A stretch of DNA of 47,775 bases, taken from sequence record PZ445409.1. One strand, written 5' to 3'. Shown here piece after piece: positions 1,640-39,618 of this stretch. The position numbers were made by a program, and so were the translations under genes. The stretch comes from a phage. Numbering within the stretch: the first letter of the stretch is position 1; each line of letters begins with the position of its first letter. Below the pieces are notes generated by a model. The model saw only the letters and a program-made list of their open reading frames with translations. It searched no databases and was not told where the DNA came from.

Positions 1640-2932
1640 ATGAGCGAAAAAACAAGGCTAGTTAAGGCCGATGGATACAACGAGATTTTCAAGGGTAGCA
1701 AGGGCAATGGGCGTGTGGAGTTGCCTTTCTTTATGCAAGGGTTCGAATACACCACGCACGCTGATTTTTACATTCGCGACGGCCTAGCAAAACGAATTAT
1801 CGACGTTGTTCCAGAAGAAATGGTGACACCTGGATTTAATATTGATGGCGTGGAAGATGAGGAGAGTTTTAGATCTTTGTGGGATGAGAAGCGACTAAAC
1901 GATAAAATCATTGATGCGCTTTGCTGGTCGCGTCTTTTTGGTGGCGCGGCAATCGTGGCAATCGTTCAGGATGGCAGGTCGTTAAAGTCACCTGCAGCGC
2001 CTGGTGCAATCCTTGAAGATGTTCGCGTTTACGATCGCTTTCAGGTTCGCGTAGAAAAGCGAGAAACTAATCCACGCAAGGTGCGATATGGTGAGCCATT
2101 AATTTACACCATTTCACCTGGTGCGGACTTGCCAGAATATCAGGTTCACTATTCGCGAGTCTGTATTATCGACGGTGAGCGGCTACCAAATCAGCGACGT
2201 CAGTCAAATGATGGTTGGGGTGAGTCAATCCTGAATAAGCGATTGGTTGAGGCTATTTGTGATTACAACTACTGCGAAAACTTAGCAACTCAATTGTTGC
2301 GACGTAAGCAACAGGCAGTATGGAAAGCTAAAGGACTTGCCGATCTTTGTGATGATGATGATGGTGTTAACGCCGCACGTTTGCGCCTTGCTCAAGTTGA
2401 TGATGAGGGTGGCGTAGGTCGTGCGATCGGCATTGATGCGGAAGATGAGGAATATGATGTTTTAAATTCTGATATTTCCGGCGTCGATTCATTCCTGGAA
2501 AAGAAGATGGATCGCATTGTATCTCTTTCCGGCATCCATGAAATCATCCTCAAAAACAAGAACGTTGGCGGTGTTAGCGCGAGCCAAAACACGGCGCTTG
2601 AAACCTTCTACAAGCTGATCGATCGAAAGCGAAAGGAAGAATACAAACCAATCCTTGAATTTCTGATCCCGTTCCTGATTCAAGAGGAAGAATGGAGTAT
2701 TCAGTTTGCGCCGTTAAGCGTTCCCAGTGAAAAGGACCAGGCCGAGATCTTGAACAAGAATATTGATTCTTTGAGCAAGGCTATTGACGGTCAATTCATG
2801 GATACAGAGGAGGCGCGCGACACATTGCGAGCCATTGCGCCTAACGTTAAACTAAAGGACGGAAATAACATTAAATTACCTGAGCAGGACGTAGAGCCGG
2901 AGCCAGGAACAACCGAGGGTAGCAATCAATGA
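1640..2932 (+). CDS. portal protein
   Basis: 430-aa ORF directly after terL; GGAG RBS 8 nt before ATG 1640 (track ORF 1634 starts at TTG); size and position typical of portal. Confidence 0.7.
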   Translation: MSEKTRLVKADGYNEIFKGSKGNGRVELPFFMQGFEYTTHADFYIRDGLAKRIIDVVPEEMVTPGFNIDGVEDEESFRSLWDEKRLNDKIIDALCWSRLFGGAAIVAIVQDGRSLKSPAAPGAILEDVRVYDRFQVRVEKRETNPRKVRYGEPLIYTISPGADLPEYQVHYSRVCIIDGERLPNQRRQSNDGWGESILNKRLVEAICDYNYCENLATQLLRRKQQAVWKAKGLADLCDDDDGVNAARLRLAQVDDEGGVGRAIGIDAEDEEYDVLNSDISGVDSFLEKKMDRIVSLSGIHEIILKNKNVGGVSASQNTALETFYKLIDRKRKEEYKPILEFLIPFLIQEEEWSIQFAPLSVPSEKDQAEILNKNIDSLSKAIDGQFMDTEEARDTLRAIAPNVKLKDGNNIKLPEQDVEPEPGTTEGSNQ

Positions 2933-3684
2933 TAGTGAAAGGCGTCGTTAAACAATGGCGCTTTCCTGAAGCAAGCGAGCGGCAATTGCGCCGCTCAATT
3001 CAGGAGGCGATAAGGGATCTTGTTGTGCTGATGCGCAGCAAAACAAAGGGGATGAAATTTGACGCGGACACCGAAGAAATCAACGCCGCAGAGGATGAGA
3101 TTAGTAGCTTCGCGTTAAAGCTAATAGCTGGCATCGCCGCATCACTTCCGGTTATCGGCCTTGCTGTTTATAAATTCAACGCAAAGCAATTTATTAACGT
3201 AGCGAAATCATCGGGAGGTAAGTCAAATTCCGCCGTTATCATCCTTATGGCTATTGGGGCCAATGCGAATGAGAGTTGGTATAGGACGCTATACGGTCAA
3301 TGGCATGACATGACGATCGCATCTCTTCAAAAACTATTTGGAAACATCGTGTCTGACTGGTCAGCCAATATTAGATCGGCAAACTTTCGCGGAATGAGAG
3401 ATAGTCAGGTTAATGAATTGGCTGGTAAGAGATTTGCAGTGTATAGCTCTTGGGGTAAGACAAGGGCTGAAAATATCATAGGCGCTTGGAATAGTAGACT
3501 CATGCGACAGCGTCTTTATGATGCAAAAGTAACTCATTATTTTTGGCATGGTATGCTTGATGACAGAGAGCGATTACAGCATGTACAATGGGAAGGTAAG
3601 CGCATTGCGCTAGATTCTGAACATGATTTTCCTGGTGAGCCTTTCGGTTGTCGTTGTTGGGCCATACCAGATTGGAACAGTTAA
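2929..3684 (+). CDS. minor head / head morphogenesis protein
   Basis: 251-aa ORF, ATGA overlap with portal stop; conserved position after portal. Confidence 0.55.
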   Translation: MIVKGVVKQWRFPEASERQLRRSIQEAIRDLVVLMRSKTKGMKFDADTEEINAAEDEISSFALKLIAGIAASLPVIGLAVYKFNAKQFINVAKSSGGKSNSAVIILMAIGANANESWYRTLYGQWHDMTIASLQKLFGNIVSDWSANIRSANFRGMRDSQVNELAGKRFAVYSSWGKTRAENIIGAWNSRLMRQRLYDAKVTHYFWHGMLDDRERLQHVQWEGKRIALDSEHDFPGEPFGCRCWAIPDWNS

Positions 3685-30603: not shown

Positions 30604-31329
30604 ATGGCTAAAGATATTTTAGATAAAGACACCCATGACGCATTCGTTAGCTTTGAGCAGTTGGAGAGAGAAACGTTTATAGGGAATGCCCTTACAACTG
30701 GAGGCCATTACCAGGCAGTAAAGCCAAATCAATATTATAAGGTAAGTGGCAACCGATACGCTGGAAGCACCACGCCGGACGTTGTGCGCGATATGTGGAG
30801 CACGCCTCAAGAGATTGTGGAGTGGATGGAATCAGAATTTGGTGAATACGATCTCGACGCGGCAGCAAGCCAGGAAAACGCAGTTTGCGAGAAGTTCTAT
30901 AGCAAGGAAACAAACTGCTTAAAGCGTTGGCGGGGTAGCAACAAGCACGTATGGCTTAACCCGCCGTACAGCAACCCAACTCCATTTATCAAGAAAGCAA
31001 TTGAGCAAATGGAGCACAACAACCAAATTGATGTTTTGTTGCCAGCCGACAACTCTACAGCATGGTTTTATGATGCGCAGAAAAACGCGGCTGAAATCAT
31101 CTGGATCACTGGCGAGGTTTACGAAGAGGGTGGAGTAGAATACTCCCGCACCGGAAGAATCGCCTTTGTGTCTGGATTGACTGGCGAGCCTGTACAGGGC
31201 AACAACAAGGGGGGCGTGATTTTTGTCATGCGAAAACTTAAAGAAGGCGAGGAGCAGAAAACGCGATACGTTAAGATCAGCGATATTTGCCCTTCTGTAA
31301 CCGAACGCCGCGCGCGCAAACGGAGCTAA
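30604..31329 (+). CDS. dam: DNA N6-adenine methyltransferase (Dam-like)
   Basis: 241-aa ORF from ATG 30604 (GGAG RBS 9 nt upstream; track start 30577); NPPY motif (WLNPPYSN); phage Dam family. Confidence 0.75.
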   Translation: MAKDILDKDTHDAFVSFEQLERETFIGNALTTGGHYQAVKPNQYYKVSGNRYAGSTTPDVVRDMWSTPQEIVEWMESEFGEYDLDAAASQENAVCEKFYSKETNCLKRWRGSNKHVWLNPPYSNPTPFIKKAIEQMEHNNQIDVLLPADNSTAWFYDAQKNAAEIIWITGEVYEEGGVEYSRTGRIAFVSGLTGEPVQGNNKGGVIFVMRKLKEGEEQKTRYVKISDICPSVTERRARKRS

Positions 31330-36973: not shown

Positions 36974-37016
36974 ATGTTACCGCACCAATACTACCCTTAT
37001 TTGTCAAAAAGTGCTA
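36974..37016 (-). promoter_or_regulatory. phage promoter unit (variant element + TAACAT)
   Basis: Minus strand TAGCACTTTTTGACAAATA + 18 nt + TAACAT; upstream of ATPase gene. Confidence 0.5.
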
Positions 37017-37025
37017 TTTGATCCG

Positions 37026-37235
37026 CTAGATTGCAACCAGTAGGCGATCTGGCTGGCGGTCGCTGTAGCATTCTCCGGTTACATCATCCTTAAAAGTGAA
37101 GTAAAGCGACTTGTGATATGAATACCCAATCAGCCAACCTTCCGCAGTTCTCTTTATTGGCCTGACAATATCGCCAGGCTTGAAAGTTGCAGTTGTGGCG
37201 TGAGTTACTTTATATCGGTATTCACTGCGGATCAT
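37026..37235 (-). CDS. hypothetical protein
   Basis: 69-aa ORF; ATGA overlap with upstream gene. Confidence 0.5.
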   Translation of the reverse strand: MIRSEYRYKVTHATTATFKPGDIVRPIKRTAEGWLIGYSYHKSLYFTFKDDVTGECYSDRQPDRLLVAI

Positions 37236-37618
37236 GAATATTTGGCCTCAAAAAGATAAGAGTAACCAGCAGAGAATCCGACCTCCTCGCGGTAGAGCGT
37301 CCATCGGTCGCCGTCCTCATCGAAGACGTAACCAGCAACTGATCCAAGAACGCGACCCTGTTCGACCTGGTAACGCTTTCCAGCTTTAAAACTTTTTTTG
37401 GTTTTCACCCGGTGATCAACAAACGTACATAGAATCGTCTTTGCCTTGATAGTGCGGTATTCGTCCTGGTTGGCTGATTCCCACTTCGCGCCCTTAGCCA
37501 GCGCCTTAACCTGAAATTCCTCCACCTCGATCACGTCGTCGCTGCCAGCTACTTTTGTGTAAACAGTTTTATAGCGACAGTTCATCAATTTGTTGTCGGA
37601 ATTGCGGATAACTTTCAT
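37232..37618 (-). CDS. hypothetical protein
   Basis: 128-aa ORF with GGAG RBS; first gene after promoter unit 37651-37693. Confidence 0.5.
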   Translation of the reverse strand: MKVIRNSDNKLMNCRYKTVYTKVAGSDDVIEVEEFQVKALAKGAKWESANQDEYRTIKAKTILCTFVDHRVKTKKSFKAGKRYQVEQGRVLGSVAGYVFDEDGDRWTLYREEVGFSAGYSYLFEAKYS

Positions 37619-37650
37619 TTGATTTTCTCCAGTTGTTTTCGTTGAAACGC

Positions 37651-37693
37651 ATTATGCCCGACTCAAGGTAGGGCGTTTTAACAAAAAGTGCTA
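37651..37693 (-). promoter_or_regulatory. phage promoter unit (element + CATAAT)
   Basis: Minus strand element starts with methyltransferase-like gene stop TAG; hexamer at 37656-37651. Confidence 0.6.
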
Positions 37694-38377
37694 TTTTGAG
37701 TTTGCCTCAAATACGGCGCGAGCAAATCCTCGCGGAGTGAGGGAGCGTAGTTGCTTTGTTCTGGCAGACTTACCTCCTAAAAACTTCCAACCCCAAAAGA
37801 ACATTACTCCCTCATCATTGCGTAACGGCTTGCGTTCCGGTTCGGTAAATCCGTTGCCGCACCAGATAGCCGTCCTTTTTGTGTAGCCATCCTTTAGCGG
37901 CATCTTGGGGTGAAAAGATCCATCGGATTCGTCCAGGTAGTTACCAAAATCGCGCGGATTGAAATAAAAATCAGGCTTGCGCCATAGCGTTGATAGTCGG
38001 CCTACAGGATTCTCAGCCATCCAGGGAACACCGAAATGATTCCCGACAGTTTCAACCATGATTGCATTTTTGAGCGCGATCTGAATATCATCATCGCTTC
38101 GCACGTGCTTGCTTCCTGATTGGGCAAACATGGTGCAGTCTGGAAATCCAAATACAATATCTGGTTTTGGAATATCCATCTTACTGATTCTTTCAATGAA
38201 ATTTTCATCAATCCACATATTAACATAATGCAGATTTTCATTCTTCATCTTGATGAAATATTCGCCGTGATTTCCCTCATCAGCGTTAAAGCAATAGCAT
38301 TGATAGCCAGCCTTCGCATATTCAAGCAGCATGATTCCAGATCCATCAAACATTGAGTAAGCAACTTTATTTCCCAT
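37691..38377 (-). CDS. DNA C5-cytosine methyltransferase-like protein lacking a target-recognition domain
   Basis: 228-aa ORF from ATG 38377 (track start 38437 is TTG); motif I SMFDGSG, motif IV-like DIVFGFPDC, motif VI-like MAENPVG, motif X-like RSLTPRGFARA; no region long enough for a TRD; TAG stop is first triplet of promoter element. Confidence 0.55.
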   Translation of the reverse strand: MGNKVAYSMFDGSGIMLLEYAKAGYQCYCFNADEGNHGEYFIKMKNENLHYVNMWIDENFIERISKMDIPKPDIVFGFPDCTMFAQSGSKHVRSDDDIQIALKNAIMVETVGNHFGVPWMAENPVGRLSTLWRKPDFYFNPRDFGNYLDESDGSFHPKMPLKDGYTKRTAIWCGNGFTEPERKPLRNDEGVMFFWGWKFLGGKSARTKQLRSLTPRGFARAVFEANSK

Positions 38378-38894
38378 GATTTTTATGATACCCCAATTCA
38401 TTCTCGGCTTTACGTTTTGCGGCAACAGCATCCCCAAAACTGGAGAAACAACCTATATAAATCCTACTTCCTCGCTTTCCGCTTCCAACCCTTACAACCC
38501 ATTTGCCATGTTTATTTTTATGCACACCTGGTATGCCACTTGTATTGTTTTTCTGCTTTGATGTGTTTCGCATATTTCCTTTGTGATCTTTTAACTCAAA
38601 GTTTATTGCTCTGTTATCAGTCGTAATGTGATTTAAGTGATCAACCTCCATTCCTTCCGGTATAGGCCCATAGTGCATTTCATAGCATATTCTATGAACT
38701 TTCAGGTTGTAACGTTTTCCGTTTACAGTAAGTGCGGTTTCTAAATATCTGCCACCACTACCCAAAGAGCCAACCTCATTACCAGCATTGCAAGCATTCC
38801 ATTGTTTAACTCTTGATTGGTGAATATCTTTTCTTTCTTTCCAGAACAGCTTTCCAGTTTCTGGATTGTATGTAAAGTAATCGTGCCAATTCAT
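38367..38894 (-). CDS. HNH homing endonuclease with AP2-like DNA-binding domain
   Basis: 175-aa ORF with GAGGTGA RBS; HNH motif EVDHLNHITTDNRAIN; C-terminal GVHKNKHGKWVVRVGSGKRGSRIYIGCFSSF AP2-type fold signature; 3-prime end overlaps start of methyltransferase-like gene. Confidence 0.7.
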   Translation of the reverse strand: MNWHDYFTYNPETGKLFWKERKDIHQSRVKQWNACNAGNEVGSLGSGGRYLETALTVNGKRYNLKVHRICYEMHYGPIPEGMEVDHLNHITTDNRAINFELKDHKGNMRNTSKQKNNTSGIPGVHKNKHGKWVVRVGSGKRGSRIYIGCFSSFGDAVAAKRKAENELGYHKNHGK

Positions 38895-38902
38895 TCATCA
38901 CC

Positions 38903-39127
38903 TCAAAACGGAAAACAGCGAGGACAGCTAGGATCGAAATCGCATCCACAATCATTAACAATCATAGTTGGATCTGCAAATATTGCGCTTGATTCAAGAT
39001 TCATATCCATATCACCTAGCGCCTCATCAAGAGTCTTAATTTTATATGCCACTTCAAGCGCCGCCTCTTTATTTAGTCCAGCATCTTCTGCCATTTGAAG
39101 TCGCTCAAAAAAACCGTCTTGACTCAT
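38903..39127 (-). CDS. hypothetical acidic protein with C-terminal Cys cluster
   Basis: 74-aa ORF; ATG overlaps stop of upstream small membrane ORF; ends CGCDFDPSCPRCFPF. Confidence 0.5.
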   Translation of the reverse strand: MSQDGFFERLQMAEDAGLNKEAALEVAYKIKTLDEALGDMDMNLESSAIFADPTMIVNDCGCDFDPSCPRCFPF

Positions 39128-39240
39128 CGCATAATCCCCTTAATAACAGCCAAGATAATAGCCAGGCCAGCAGCAGTAACCAAAAATCCAACCGCGCCAA
39201 TAATCGAATAAAAAAAGAAATCAATAGCTTTATCTATCAT
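39124..39240 (-). CDS. small membrane protein (38 aa, not in ORF track)
   Basis: ATG 39240 with GAGGTGG RBS right after a minus-strand terminator; single hydrophobic helix; TGA overlaps next ATG. Confidence 0.4.
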   Translation of the reverse strand: MIDKAIDFFFYSIIGAVGFLVTAAGLAIILAVIKGIMR

Positions 39241-39282
39241 TTTCCACCTCATTTAAAAGGCGGCAAAACGCCGCCAGATTAA

Positions 39283-39510
39283 TTAAAGAGCGCGCCAACT
39301 TTGAATATAGAAATCGTTTTCTTCCAGTAATTCTTTTACCTGATCTTTATTGTATTTGCGCACCTTGCCGCCTGGATGGATACCAATAAGATAGCCGCCT
39401 TTGCCCTCGGTGATAGTGATTTGGCTAATTCCGCAGGACTTATCAAGTTTTACAGCCACGCGGTGATGAGCGTCAATAGTTGCCATAATGTTTAAAACTT
39501 TTGCTTTCAT
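39283..39510 (-). CDS. hypothetical protein
   Basis: 75-aa ORF with GAGGA RBS. Confidence 0.5.
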   Translation of the reverse strand: MKAKVLNIMATIDAHHRVAVKLDKSCGISQITITEGKGGYLIGIHPGGKVRKYNKDQVKELLEENDFYIQSWRAL

Positions 39511-39618
39511 TTAAATATCCTCAATTGAAATATGAATGACGTGGTGCTCTTTTTCCGTCGCCGCCGTAATGGTCATTTGCAACCGCCACCATCCAAGCGT
39601 TTTTGAAAATAAATAGCC

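What the first reader, a model, noticed from the sequence alone, without database searches (positions are those of the whole stretch)
37691..38894. HNH-AP2 endonuclease translationally coupled to a TRD-less C5-methyltransferase-like protein
The 228-aa protein (37691-38377) carries C5-cytosine methyltransferase motifs in canonical order: motif I SMFDGSG, motif IV-like FGFPDC (PDC where PCQ is expected), motif VI-like AENPVG and motif X-like RSLTPRGFARA. It is far too short to contain a target-recognition domain. Its start overlaps the 3-prime end of an HNH endonuclease with an AP2-type DNA-binding domain (38367-38894). A methyltransferase core without a TRD and with a shifted catalytic Cys could be a nonspecific or nucleotide-level modifier, a noncatalytic DNA binder, or the protective partner of the adjacent endonuclease in a minimal homing or restriction-like pair. 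Its stop codon is embedded in a promoter unit, so it is an integrated, expressed gene.
Basis: partly seen in the sequence, partly recalled or inferred. Interest (0 to 1): 0.65.

Follow-up and report, generated by a model that had tools for sequence, protein, structure and literature searches.

The report
Phage Dcm methylase plus homing endonuclease
The short methylase-like gene belongs to an already described family of minimal phage DNA cytosine-5 methyltransferases (the "phage Dcm" that sets off the bacterial retron Ec86 defence), and the endonuclease in front of it is a selfish homing gene that inserted there, not its working partner.

Summary
The window is a complete T1-like coliphage genome (Drexlerviridae, Tempevirinae). 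Both ORFs exist as described, on the minus strand, with an 11-nt overlap. The 228-aa protein has a confident C5-cytosine DNA methyltransferase fold (best matches DNMT3B/3A, M.HhaI). It is 45% identical over its full length to the phage K42/KarlJaspers-type "Dcm". That enzyme was reported to put 5mC on retron Ec86 msDNA and to trigger that defence. The catalytic Cys, the ENP Glu and the motif VIII Lys are almost invariant in 247 relatives, so an active enzyme is likely. The family really does lack a classical TRD and motif X.

Two details are wrong. The Cys is in register (P-to-D substitution at a variable position), and RSLTPRGFARA is motif IX, not motif X.

The HNH protein is an I-HmuI-like HNH plus AP2 homing endonuclease. 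It sits in a 538-nt cassette that replaces 22 nt in otherwise 97%-identical phages. The cassette takes over the methylase's ribosome-binding site and supplies a new start codon. Close copies occur in 12 phage records, against about 1,500 records with the methylase, so a restriction-like pair is not supported. The promoter claim was not confirmed. This is an ordinary new member of known kinds; the enzyme's true sequence specificity remains unmeasured.

The parts
37691..38377 (-). Minimal phage C5-cytosine DNA methyltransferase ('phage Dcm' family), 228 aa. The ATG at 38377 is chosen by homology with endonuclease-free alleles. In-frame upstream starts exist at 38401 (ATG) and 38437 (TTG).
38336..38356 (-). 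Motif I (SAM binding), SMFDGSG, residues 8-14
   Evidence: FDGSG conserved; aligns with FSGAGG of M.HaeIII
38135..38152 (-). Motif IV, FGFPDC, residues 76-81. Catalytic Cys81 is in register with Cys71 of M.HaeIII and Cys82 of K42-type Dcm. Followed by a low-confidence flexible loop, residues 83-92.
   Evidence: Cys in 245 of 247 sequences
38000..38017 (-). Motif VI, AENPVG, residues 121-126 (ENV-type Glu122)
   Evidence: Glu in 247 of 247 sequences
37871..37885 (-). Motif VIII-like YTKRT, residues 165-169 (Lys167 and Arg168 correspond to K175 and K176 of K42 Dcm)
   Evidence: bioRxiv 10.1101/2023.08.16.553469
37715..37747 (-). Motif IX, RSLTPRGFARA, residues 211-221. The protein ends 7 residues later, so there is no motif X.
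38367..38894 (-). Free-standing HNH-AP2 homing endonuclease gene, 175 aa
38568..38702 (-). HNH_3 catalytic (beta-beta-alpha metal) domain, residues 65-109
   Evidence: E=6.7e-15; I-HmuI 3e-8; 1u3e E=1.8e-4
38394..38543 (-). AP2/ERF-type DNA-binding domain, about residues 118-167
   Evidence: PF00847 in aligned homologues; WRI1 1e-9, TEM1 5e-5, ERF1 4e-3; three strands plus a helix
38363..38900 (-). 538-nt homing-endonuclease cassette. In BEK7 and A13a this position holds 22 nt: the spacer plus the first five methylase codons (MKQKI). The cassette supplies replacement codons MGNKV.
38367..38377 (-). 11-nt overlap ATGGGAAATAA: the methylase start lies inside the HNH 3' end. This is the likely site of termination-reinitiation coupling (inferred).
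38901..38904 (-). GAGG Shine-Dalgarno sequence. It precedes the methylase ATG in endonuclease-free phages and precedes the HNH ATG here.
   Evidence: The K42 escaper mutation 9 bp upstream of dcm falls on the equivalent G (inference).
38903..39127 (-). Conserved 74-aa gene of unknown function (phrog_9323) that forms the upstream border of the insertion site

Best explanation
Two independent elements lie side by side.

(1) The 228-aa protein is an active, orphan, SAM-dependent DNA cytosine-5 methyltransferase of the minimal 'phage Dcm' family. It has motifs I, IV, VI, VIII and IX on a Rossmann-type core, only about 40 residues where a TRD would be, and no motif X. It is made early in infection and methylates cytosines in phage DNA, and incidentally in host and retron DNA. 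The presumed benefit is protection from restriction. Methylation by a family member is what retron Ec86/Eco1 senses.

(2) The 175-aa protein is a free-standing I-HmuI-like HNH homing endonuclease with an AP2 DNA-binding domain. Its 538-nt cassette inserted exactly at the 5' end of the methylase gene. It took over the methylase's GAGG ribosome-binding site and replaced the first five codons with its own 3' end. The methylase is now most likely translated by termination-reinitiation at the ATGGGAAATAA overlap.

Shown: fold, family membership, residue conservation, cassette boundaries, sporadic distribution. Inferred: catalytic activity of this allele, its sequence specificity, translational coupling, homing activity.
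For: Methylase:
- phrog_757 E=3.5e-77.
- AlphaFold2 pLDDT 88.5, pTM 0.88.
- Foldseek top hits are DNMT3B/3A at E about 1e-7.
- 45% identity, E=3e-71, full length, to the tonnikala/K42-type Dcm. Its C82, E128, K175 and K176 are exactly the residues mutated in the paper and align with C81, E122, K167 and R168 here.
- The paper reports 5mC on msDNA by LC-MS that depends on those residues, and escape mutants in dcm.
- Cys, Glu-Asn-Pro, Lys and Thr are invariant or nearly so in 247 relatives.
- Bacterial copies lie in prophage replication modules without a nuclease.
- CCWGG and GATC are not depleted in a genome otherwise purged of 6-bp palindromes. This is weak and only compatible.

Endonuclease:
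- HNH_3; profile hits to I-HmuI and to AP2 domains; model and Foldseek.
- Precise 538-nt versus 22-nt replacement relative to BEK7 and A13a, with 97% identity downstream.
- HNH copies of 90% identity or more in 12 records, against 31 records with this methylase allele and 1,493 with the family.
Against: - No methylation data exist for this allele. It has Asp instead of Pro before the catalytic Cys.
- The CCWGG specificity of the characterised relative was inferred from E. coli Dcm and from msDNA mutants, not measured on genomic DNA.
- Pfam PF00145 scores only 14.4 bits, below its 22-bit cut-off, and NCBIfam gives nothing.
- Translational coupling and endonuclease activity are untested.
- All HNH-positive phages found carry this methylase allele, so some linkage exists, although co-conversion during homing explains it.
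Confidence: 0.8

Rival explanations
1. The HNH endonuclease and the methylase form a minimal restriction-modification or toxin-antidote-like pair. The methylase protects phage DNA from the adjacent nuclease, which attacks unmethylated host or competitor DNA.
For: Adjacency with an 11-nt overlap. Every close HNH copy found lies next to this methylase allele. HNH genes also sit near family members in Dhillonvirus-like phages.
Against: The methylase occurs without the HNH in 94-97% identical alleles and in about 1,500 phage records, against 12 for the HNH. The HNH belongs to the I-HmuI/AP2 homing class, whose relatives sit at many unrelated loci. The junction is a clean cassette insertion. Prophage copies lack nuclease neighbours.
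Confidence: 0.06
2. The protein is catalytically inactive. It would be a DNA- or SAM-binding protein that has lost methyl transfer because the Pro-Cys dipeptide is altered and the TRD and motif X are missing (a DNMT3L-like decoy or regulator).
For: PDC replaces the canonical PC. There is no TRD or motif X. The Pfam score is below threshold.
Against: Cys81, Glu122, Asn123, Pro124, Lys167, Thr169 and Arg211 are invariant or nearly so over 247 diverse sequences, while the residue before the Cys varies freely (P, D, S, E, V). The PPC-type relative with the same minimal architecture was reported active in vivo. Inactive paralogues such as DNMT3L lose these residues (established knowledge).
Confidence: 0.05
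3. The enzyme methylates something other than duplex phage DNA at CCWGG. Candidates are tRNA or other RNA (DNMT2-like), single-stranded or hairpin DNA, a much shorter or degenerate motif, or it transfers a group other than methyl.
For: Only about 40 residues are available for target recognition. The best structural neighbours are DNMT3 enzymes, which read just CpG. Another structural neighbour is a C5-carboxymethyltransferase, 8yf3. In the K42 study, msDNA had little 5mC in cells without the phage enzyme; the host strain MG1655 is known to carry its own dcm (own knowledge), which hints that the phage enzyme differs from host Dcm in substrate or specificity.
Against: 5mC was the product detected by LC-MS for the relative, and CC-to-AA, AC or CA changes in the msDNA CCTGG abolished defence. 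DNMT2 and RNA m5C enzymes score lower than DNA enzymes. No CmoA-like carboxy-SAM synthase gene is annotated in the nearly identical phage Kalemo, though the window's own ORFs were not scanned for one.
Confidence: 0.09

Closest known systems
Phage K42 / KarlJaspers-type 'Dcm' (236 aa), the trigger of retron Ec86/Eco1 (bioRxiv 10.1101/2023.08.16.553469; cited as established in PMC12916289)
   Same: Same family and same genomic slot in Tempevirinae, between the 74-aa and 128-aa genes. 45% identity over the full length. Same minimal architecture. The catalytic Cys, Glu and Lys align.
   Different: Only 45% identical. FPDC instead of FPPC, and 8 residues shorter. Here it is preceded by a homing endonuclease. 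Neither activity nor retron triggering has been tested for this allele.
DNMT3A/DNMT3B catalytic domain
   Different: 12-16% sequence identity. DNMT3 retains motif X and about 50 more residues, and works as a multimer with regulatory domains. This is a resemblance of fold, not orthology.
Classical bacterial C5 methyltransferases (E. coli Dcm, M.HhaI, M.HaeIII; Pfam PF00145)
   Different: No TRD of 80-115 residues, no motif X, ENP instead of ENV, and below the Pfam gathering score.
I-HmuI-like HNH homing endonucleases with AP2 domains (free-standing phage homing endonuclease genes)
   Same: HNH_3 catalytic domain, similarity to I-HmuI, C-terminal AP2 fold, sporadic presence, intergenic cassette.
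   Different: I-HmuI is intron-encoded and uses different C-terminal DNA-binding modules. The cleavage site and the nicking or cutting behaviour of this enzyme are unknown.

Membership tests
Phage minimal Dcm family (phrog_757; K42 Dcm) | Full-length sequence homology to characterised or annotated members | tested here: met
   phrog_757 E=3.5e-77; 45% identity, E=3e-71, residues 1-228 against 1-236 of the K42-type allele
Phage minimal Dcm family (phrog_757; K42 Dcm) | Residues shown to be needed in K42 Dcm (C82, E128, K175, K176) are present | tested here: met
   C81, E122 and K167 are present; R168 replaces K176, a position that is K 167 / R 42 in the family
Phage minimal Dcm family (phrog_757; K42 Dcm) | Produces 5-methylcytosine in DNA; triggers retron Ec86 | not testable with these tools
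   Experimental; reported only for the K42 allele
C5-cytosine DNA methyltransferases (PF00145 superfamily) | Class I Rossmann-type methyltransferase fold most similar to C5 DNA methyltransferases | tested here: met
C5-cytosine DNA methyltransferases (PF00145 superfamily) | Motif I FxGxG, motif IV catalytic Cys, motif VI ENV Glu | tested here: met
   FDGSG, FPDC and ENP; in register with M.HaeIII and conserved. The Pro of the PC dipeptide is Asp here.
C5-cytosine DNA methyltransferases (PF00145 superfamily) | Pfam gathering score reached | tested here: not met
   14.4 bits against a cut-off of 22; only residues 8-96 match
C5-cytosine DNA methyltransferases (PF00145 superfamily) | Variable target-recognition domain between motifs VIII and IX, and motif X (GNxV) at the C-terminus | tested here: not met
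   36-45 residues between motifs VIII and IX, 8-12 residues after IX, and no GNxV. About 115 residues separate VIII and IX in the E. coli Dcm sequence.
HNH-AP2 homing endonucleases | HNH (beta-beta-alpha metal) nuclease domain | tested here: met
   PF13392 E=6.7e-15; I-HmuI 3e-8 by profile and 1.8e-4 by fold
HNH-AP2 homing endonucleases | AP2/ERF DNA-binding domain | tested here: met
   Not detected by Pfam in the query. The family profile hits AP2 structures at 1e-9 to 4e-3, aligned homologues carry PF00847, and the model has the AP2 topology.
HNH-AP2 homing endonucleases | Sporadic presence or absence at a fixed site between conserved genes | tested here: met
   538-nt cassette against 22 nt in BEK7 and A13a; 12 records against 31
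HNH-AP2 homing endonucleases | Cleaves the endonuclease-free allele and is preferentially inherited | not testable with these tools
   Needs an in vitro cleavage assay and mixed infections
Type II restriction-modification pair | Nuclease and methylase co-inherited and sharing specificity | tested here: not met
   The methylase is widespread without the nuclease. Shared specificity could not be tested.

The most novel reading that the evidence does not exclude
The TRD-less, motif-X-less phage Dcm family does not copy host Dcm (CCWGG). It would recognise its target in a different way: a very short or degenerate motif, DNA structure such as hairpins or single strands, or recognition through dimerisation as in DNMT3. 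The two 45%-identical alleles (PPC type and PDC type) that replace each other at the same locus in Warwickvirus would then differ in specificity, or in visibility to retron Eco1, as part of an arms race. The homing endonuclease would spread one allele by co-conversion.
Probability: 0.2. Interest if true: 0.5.

Novelty: new member of a known kind. Interest (0 to 1): 0.25.

Why it matters
As it stands this is routine annotation. The same gene pair is deposited in GenBank at about 90% DNA identity over the 2.5-kb region, annotated as cytosine methyltransferase plus HNH endonuclease, and the methylase family has a published role as the trigger of retron Ec86/Eco1.

Two points remain useful:
- The family is probably the smallest C5 DNA methyltransferase architecture in wide circulation, with about 1,500 phage records. 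How it selects targets without a TRD or motif X has not been measured.
- The junction is a clean example of a homing endonuclease gene taking over a resident gene's ribosome-binding site while re-supplying its start codon. This explains overlaps that look like functional coupling.

Tried and rejected
- NCBIfam gave no hit for either protein.
- A profile of the methylase family against PDB sequences found nothing meaningful.
- hhalign of the family against the single E. coli Dcm sequence aligned only motif IV, with low probability. Segment-wise local alignment was used instead.
- Pfam AP2 was not detected in the query or in its isolated C-terminal part. This was resolved with a family profile and a structure model.
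- A guessed accession for phage KarlJaspers (MZ501056) turned out to be an unrelated T4-like phage. The K42-type allele was identified instead through tonnikala/FritzSarasin and the residue numbering.
- A promoter scan and a repeat search did not support the 'promoter unit'.
- No second copy of the HNH or of the methylase exists in the window.
- Pfam scans of ten longer family members were run to look for a fused TRD. None has a fused DNA-binding or TRD-like domain; two carry selfish elements instead (intein, HNH_2).
- Literature searches found no methylome for a phage carrying this family.
- Motif-count statistics are compatible with CCWGG protection but cannot discriminate.

Full report
**Context.** The window matches T1-like coliphages of the Drexlerviridae, subfamily Tempevirinae (Warwickvirus and Hanrivervirus), at 90-97% DNA identity. 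Comparison with phage Kalemo shows it is a complete, circularly permuted genome of about 47.8 kb that starts at the large terminase gene. The two genes of the finding lie on the minus strand in the early/replication region. They sit between a conserved 74-aa gene and a 128-aa gene, upstream of a DUF3987 helicase.

**Observation.**
- ORF 37691-38377(-) encodes 228 aa and ORF 38367-38894(-) encodes 175 aa.
- The methylase ATG (38377) lies 8 nt before the HNH stop codon TAA (38367-38369). The overlap is ATGGGAAATAA.
- The four quoted peptides are present in the stated order.

Two details need correction.
- The Cys is not displaced. phmmer aligns GFPDC with GGPPC of M.HaeIII without a gap, and BLASTP aligns FPDC with FPPC of a related phage allele. 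The difference is Pro to Asp at the residue before the Cys. In 247 family members that position is P 112, D 89, S 23, E 11, V 8, while the Cys is present in 245.
- RSLTPRGFARA aligns with RRLTPRECARL of E. coli Dcm, which is motif IX. Motif X (FGNSVVVP) has no counterpart, and the protein ends 7 residues later.

The statement that the stop codon sits in a promoter unit was not reproduced. The consensus scan finds no sigma-70-like site on the minus strand in 37000-39600. The TTGTTA…CATAAT pair is 22 nt apart, and the 34-nt stretch occurs only once in the window.

**What the 228-aa protein is.**
- Pfam PF00145 scores only 14.4 bits, below its 22-bit cut-off, and NCBIfam gives nothing.
- PHROG 757 'DNA methyltransferase' matches at 3.5e-77.
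- The protein database holds 816 homologues, nearly all of 215-245 aa. A profile search of 1.8 billion cluster representatives finds 1,792. tblastn finds the family in 1,493 phage records: T1-like, Webervirus, Dhillonvirus, rV5-like, phAPEC8-like and others.
- An AlphaFold2 model built on 65 sequences is confident (pLDDT 88.5, pTM 0.88). The only disordered stretch, residues 83-92, directly follows the Cys. In known C5 methyltransferases the mobile catalytic loop sits at this position (own knowledge).
- Foldseek's best PDB matches are DNMT3B/3A catalytic domains, E about 1e-7.
- E122-N123-P124, Y165, K167, T169, R211 and G217 are invariant or nearly so.
- The segment between motifs VIII and IX is 36-45 residues, and the tail after motif IX is 8-12 residues, throughout the family. 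About 115 residues separate those motifs in the E. coli Dcm sequence.

**Link to published work.**
- A bioRxiv paper (10.1101/2023.08.16.553469) isolated escape mutants of Drexlerviridae phage K42 (KarlJaspers strain) on retron Ec86. All mapped to a 711-bp 'dcm' gene.
- Expressing that Dcm was toxic only with the retron. A C82A/E128A/K175A/K176A mutant was inert.
- LC-MS found Dcm-dependent 5mC on the msDNA.
- Mutating the msDNA CCTGG abolished defence. Later papers cite this as established.
- The 711-bp gene at the same locus of phage tonnikala is about 99% identical in BASEL phage FritzSarasin, where it is annotated 'Dcm-like C5 cytosine methyltransferase'. It has Cys, Glu, Lys and Lys at exactly positions 82, 128, 175 and 176.
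- The window's protein is 45% identical to it from end to end (E=3e-71), with C81, E122, K167 and R168 aligned.

The protein is thus a divergent member of an experimentally studied family. The CCWGG specificity in that paper was taken over from E. coli Dcm and supported by msDNA mutants. It was not measured on genomic DNA.

**What the 175-aa protein is.**
- Pfam HNH_3 matches residues 65-109 (6.7e-15).
- Pfam AP2 is not detected in the query.
- Full-length homologues at 36-41% identity carry PF00847 at the aligned position.
- A profile of 63 family members hits AP2 domains of WRI1 (1.1e-9), TEM1 (5e-5) and ERF1 (4e-3) with its C-terminal part, and I-HmuI (3e-8) with its central part.
- The AlphaFold2 model (pLDDT 88.9) shows three strands and a helix at 124-167. 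Foldseek returns I-HmuI and AP2 domains.

HNH-AP2 is confirmed.

**Relationship between the two genes.**
- Phages BEK7 and A13a carry the same methylase allele (96.9% and 93.9% amino-acid identity) directly after the 74-aa gene.
- Anchoring on CCGTTTTGAGG and GCTTACTCAATG, these phages have 22 nt where the window has 538 nt (38363-38900). Downstream identity is 97%.
- The 22 nt are the spacer plus codons MKQKI. The cassette ends with ATGGGAAATAAAGTT, which supplies MGNKV.
- The GAGG that precedes the methylase ATG in endonuclease-free phages now precedes the HNH ATG. The K42 escaper mutation 9 bp upstream of dcm falls on the equivalent G, which is consistent with this being the functional Shine-Dalgarno sequence (inference).
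- HNH copies of at least 90% identity occur in 12 phage records, against 31 with this methylase allele.
- More distant relatives of the HNH lie at unrelated loci, for example between tail genes in Kalemo.
- Other homing endonuclease genes are inserted one or two genes downstream in BEK7 and BEK12A.
- Family members of the methylase elsewhere carry an intein or an HNH_2 domain.
- Bacterial copies (Serratia, Bdellovibrio) sit in prophage replication modules with no nuclease next to them.

The overlap is best read as the way a selfish cassette keeps the downstream gene expressed, not as a two-gene functional system.

**Weak supporting context.**
- The genome also encodes a Dam-like NPPY methyltransferase at 30604-31326(+).
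- GATC (278 observed, 283 expected) and CCWGG (105 observed, 116 expected) are not avoided.
- 6-bp palindromes are almost absent: GAATTC 1 against 12 expected, GATATC 0 against 12, CAGCTG 0 against 8.

This is compatible with self-protection of those two motifs, but it is equally explained by growth on dam-positive, dcm-positive hosts.

**Verdict.** The methylase is a new, divergent member of a known family of phage orphan C5 methyltransferases. The endonuclease is an ordinary free-standing HNH-AP2 homing endonuclease. The restriction-like pairing is not supported. Open questions are the real specificity and recognition mode of this minimal enzyme, and whether the PDC-type and PPC-type alleles differ. 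These two alleles replace each other at one locus with about 97% identical flanks.

Noticed in passing
window 30604-31326 (+): A second orphan methyltransferase, Dam-like with an NPPY motif, 98% identical to the 241-aa 'DNA methyltransferase' of phage Kalemo.
   Followed up: partly
whole window: The window appears to be a complete, circularly permuted genome of about 47.8 kb. It starts exactly at the large terminase gene and ends at the small terminase gene, by comparison with Kalemo.
   Followed up: partly
whole window: Strong avoidance of 6-bp palindromes (GAATTC 1 against 12 expected, CTGCAG 1 against 11, GATATC 0 against 12, CAGCTG 0 against 8, GGTACC 0 against 2.6) and of CCSGG (7 against 18) and CTAG (33 against 63). 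GATC and CCWGG are at expectation.
   Followed up: partly
window 37691-38900 compared with L002 (MatMar) and L005 (tonnikala): Two methylase alleles only 45% identical in protein (FPDC type and FPPC/K42 type) occupy the same slot within one phage genus, and the flanking genes are about 97% identical. This is a sharp mosaic boundary. All HNH-positive phages found carry the FPDC type.
   Followed up: partly
P0263 and P0214 (relatives of the methylase): One family member is interrupted by an intein (Hint plus LAGLIDADG, 548 aa) and another carries an HNH_2 domain (348 aa). The methylase gene is a recurrent target of selfish elements.
   Followed up: partly
L003 (BEK12A) 2223-2744 and L009 (BEK7) 2606-3124: Other homing endonuclease genes are inserted one to two genes downstream of the methylase in close relatives. 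In BEK12A the insertion truncates or splits the 128-aa gene. The window has an intact 128-aa gene at 37232-37618.
   Followed up: no
window 38886-38896 and 38393-38403 (-): An 11-nt direct repeat, GAATGAATTGG, lies at the start and near the 3' end of the HNH ORF. Each copy contains ATGAATTGG (M-N-W). The downstream copy gives an in-frame alternative start for the methylase, which some GenBank records use. About 0.2 such repeats are expected by chance in 1.2 kb.
   Followed up: no
L006 (MG065679.1) and similar records: About 39 'Campylobacter phage' records (UNVERIFIED) are classified as Drexlerviridae and are more than 90% identical to coliphages. The host label looks doubtful.
   Followed up: no
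window 39259-39275 (-): A GC-rich hairpin followed by a T-run (GGCGGCGTTTTGCCGCC TTTT) looks like an intrinsic terminator. It lies between the 75-aa gene and the 42-aa gene upstream of the locus.
   Followed up: no
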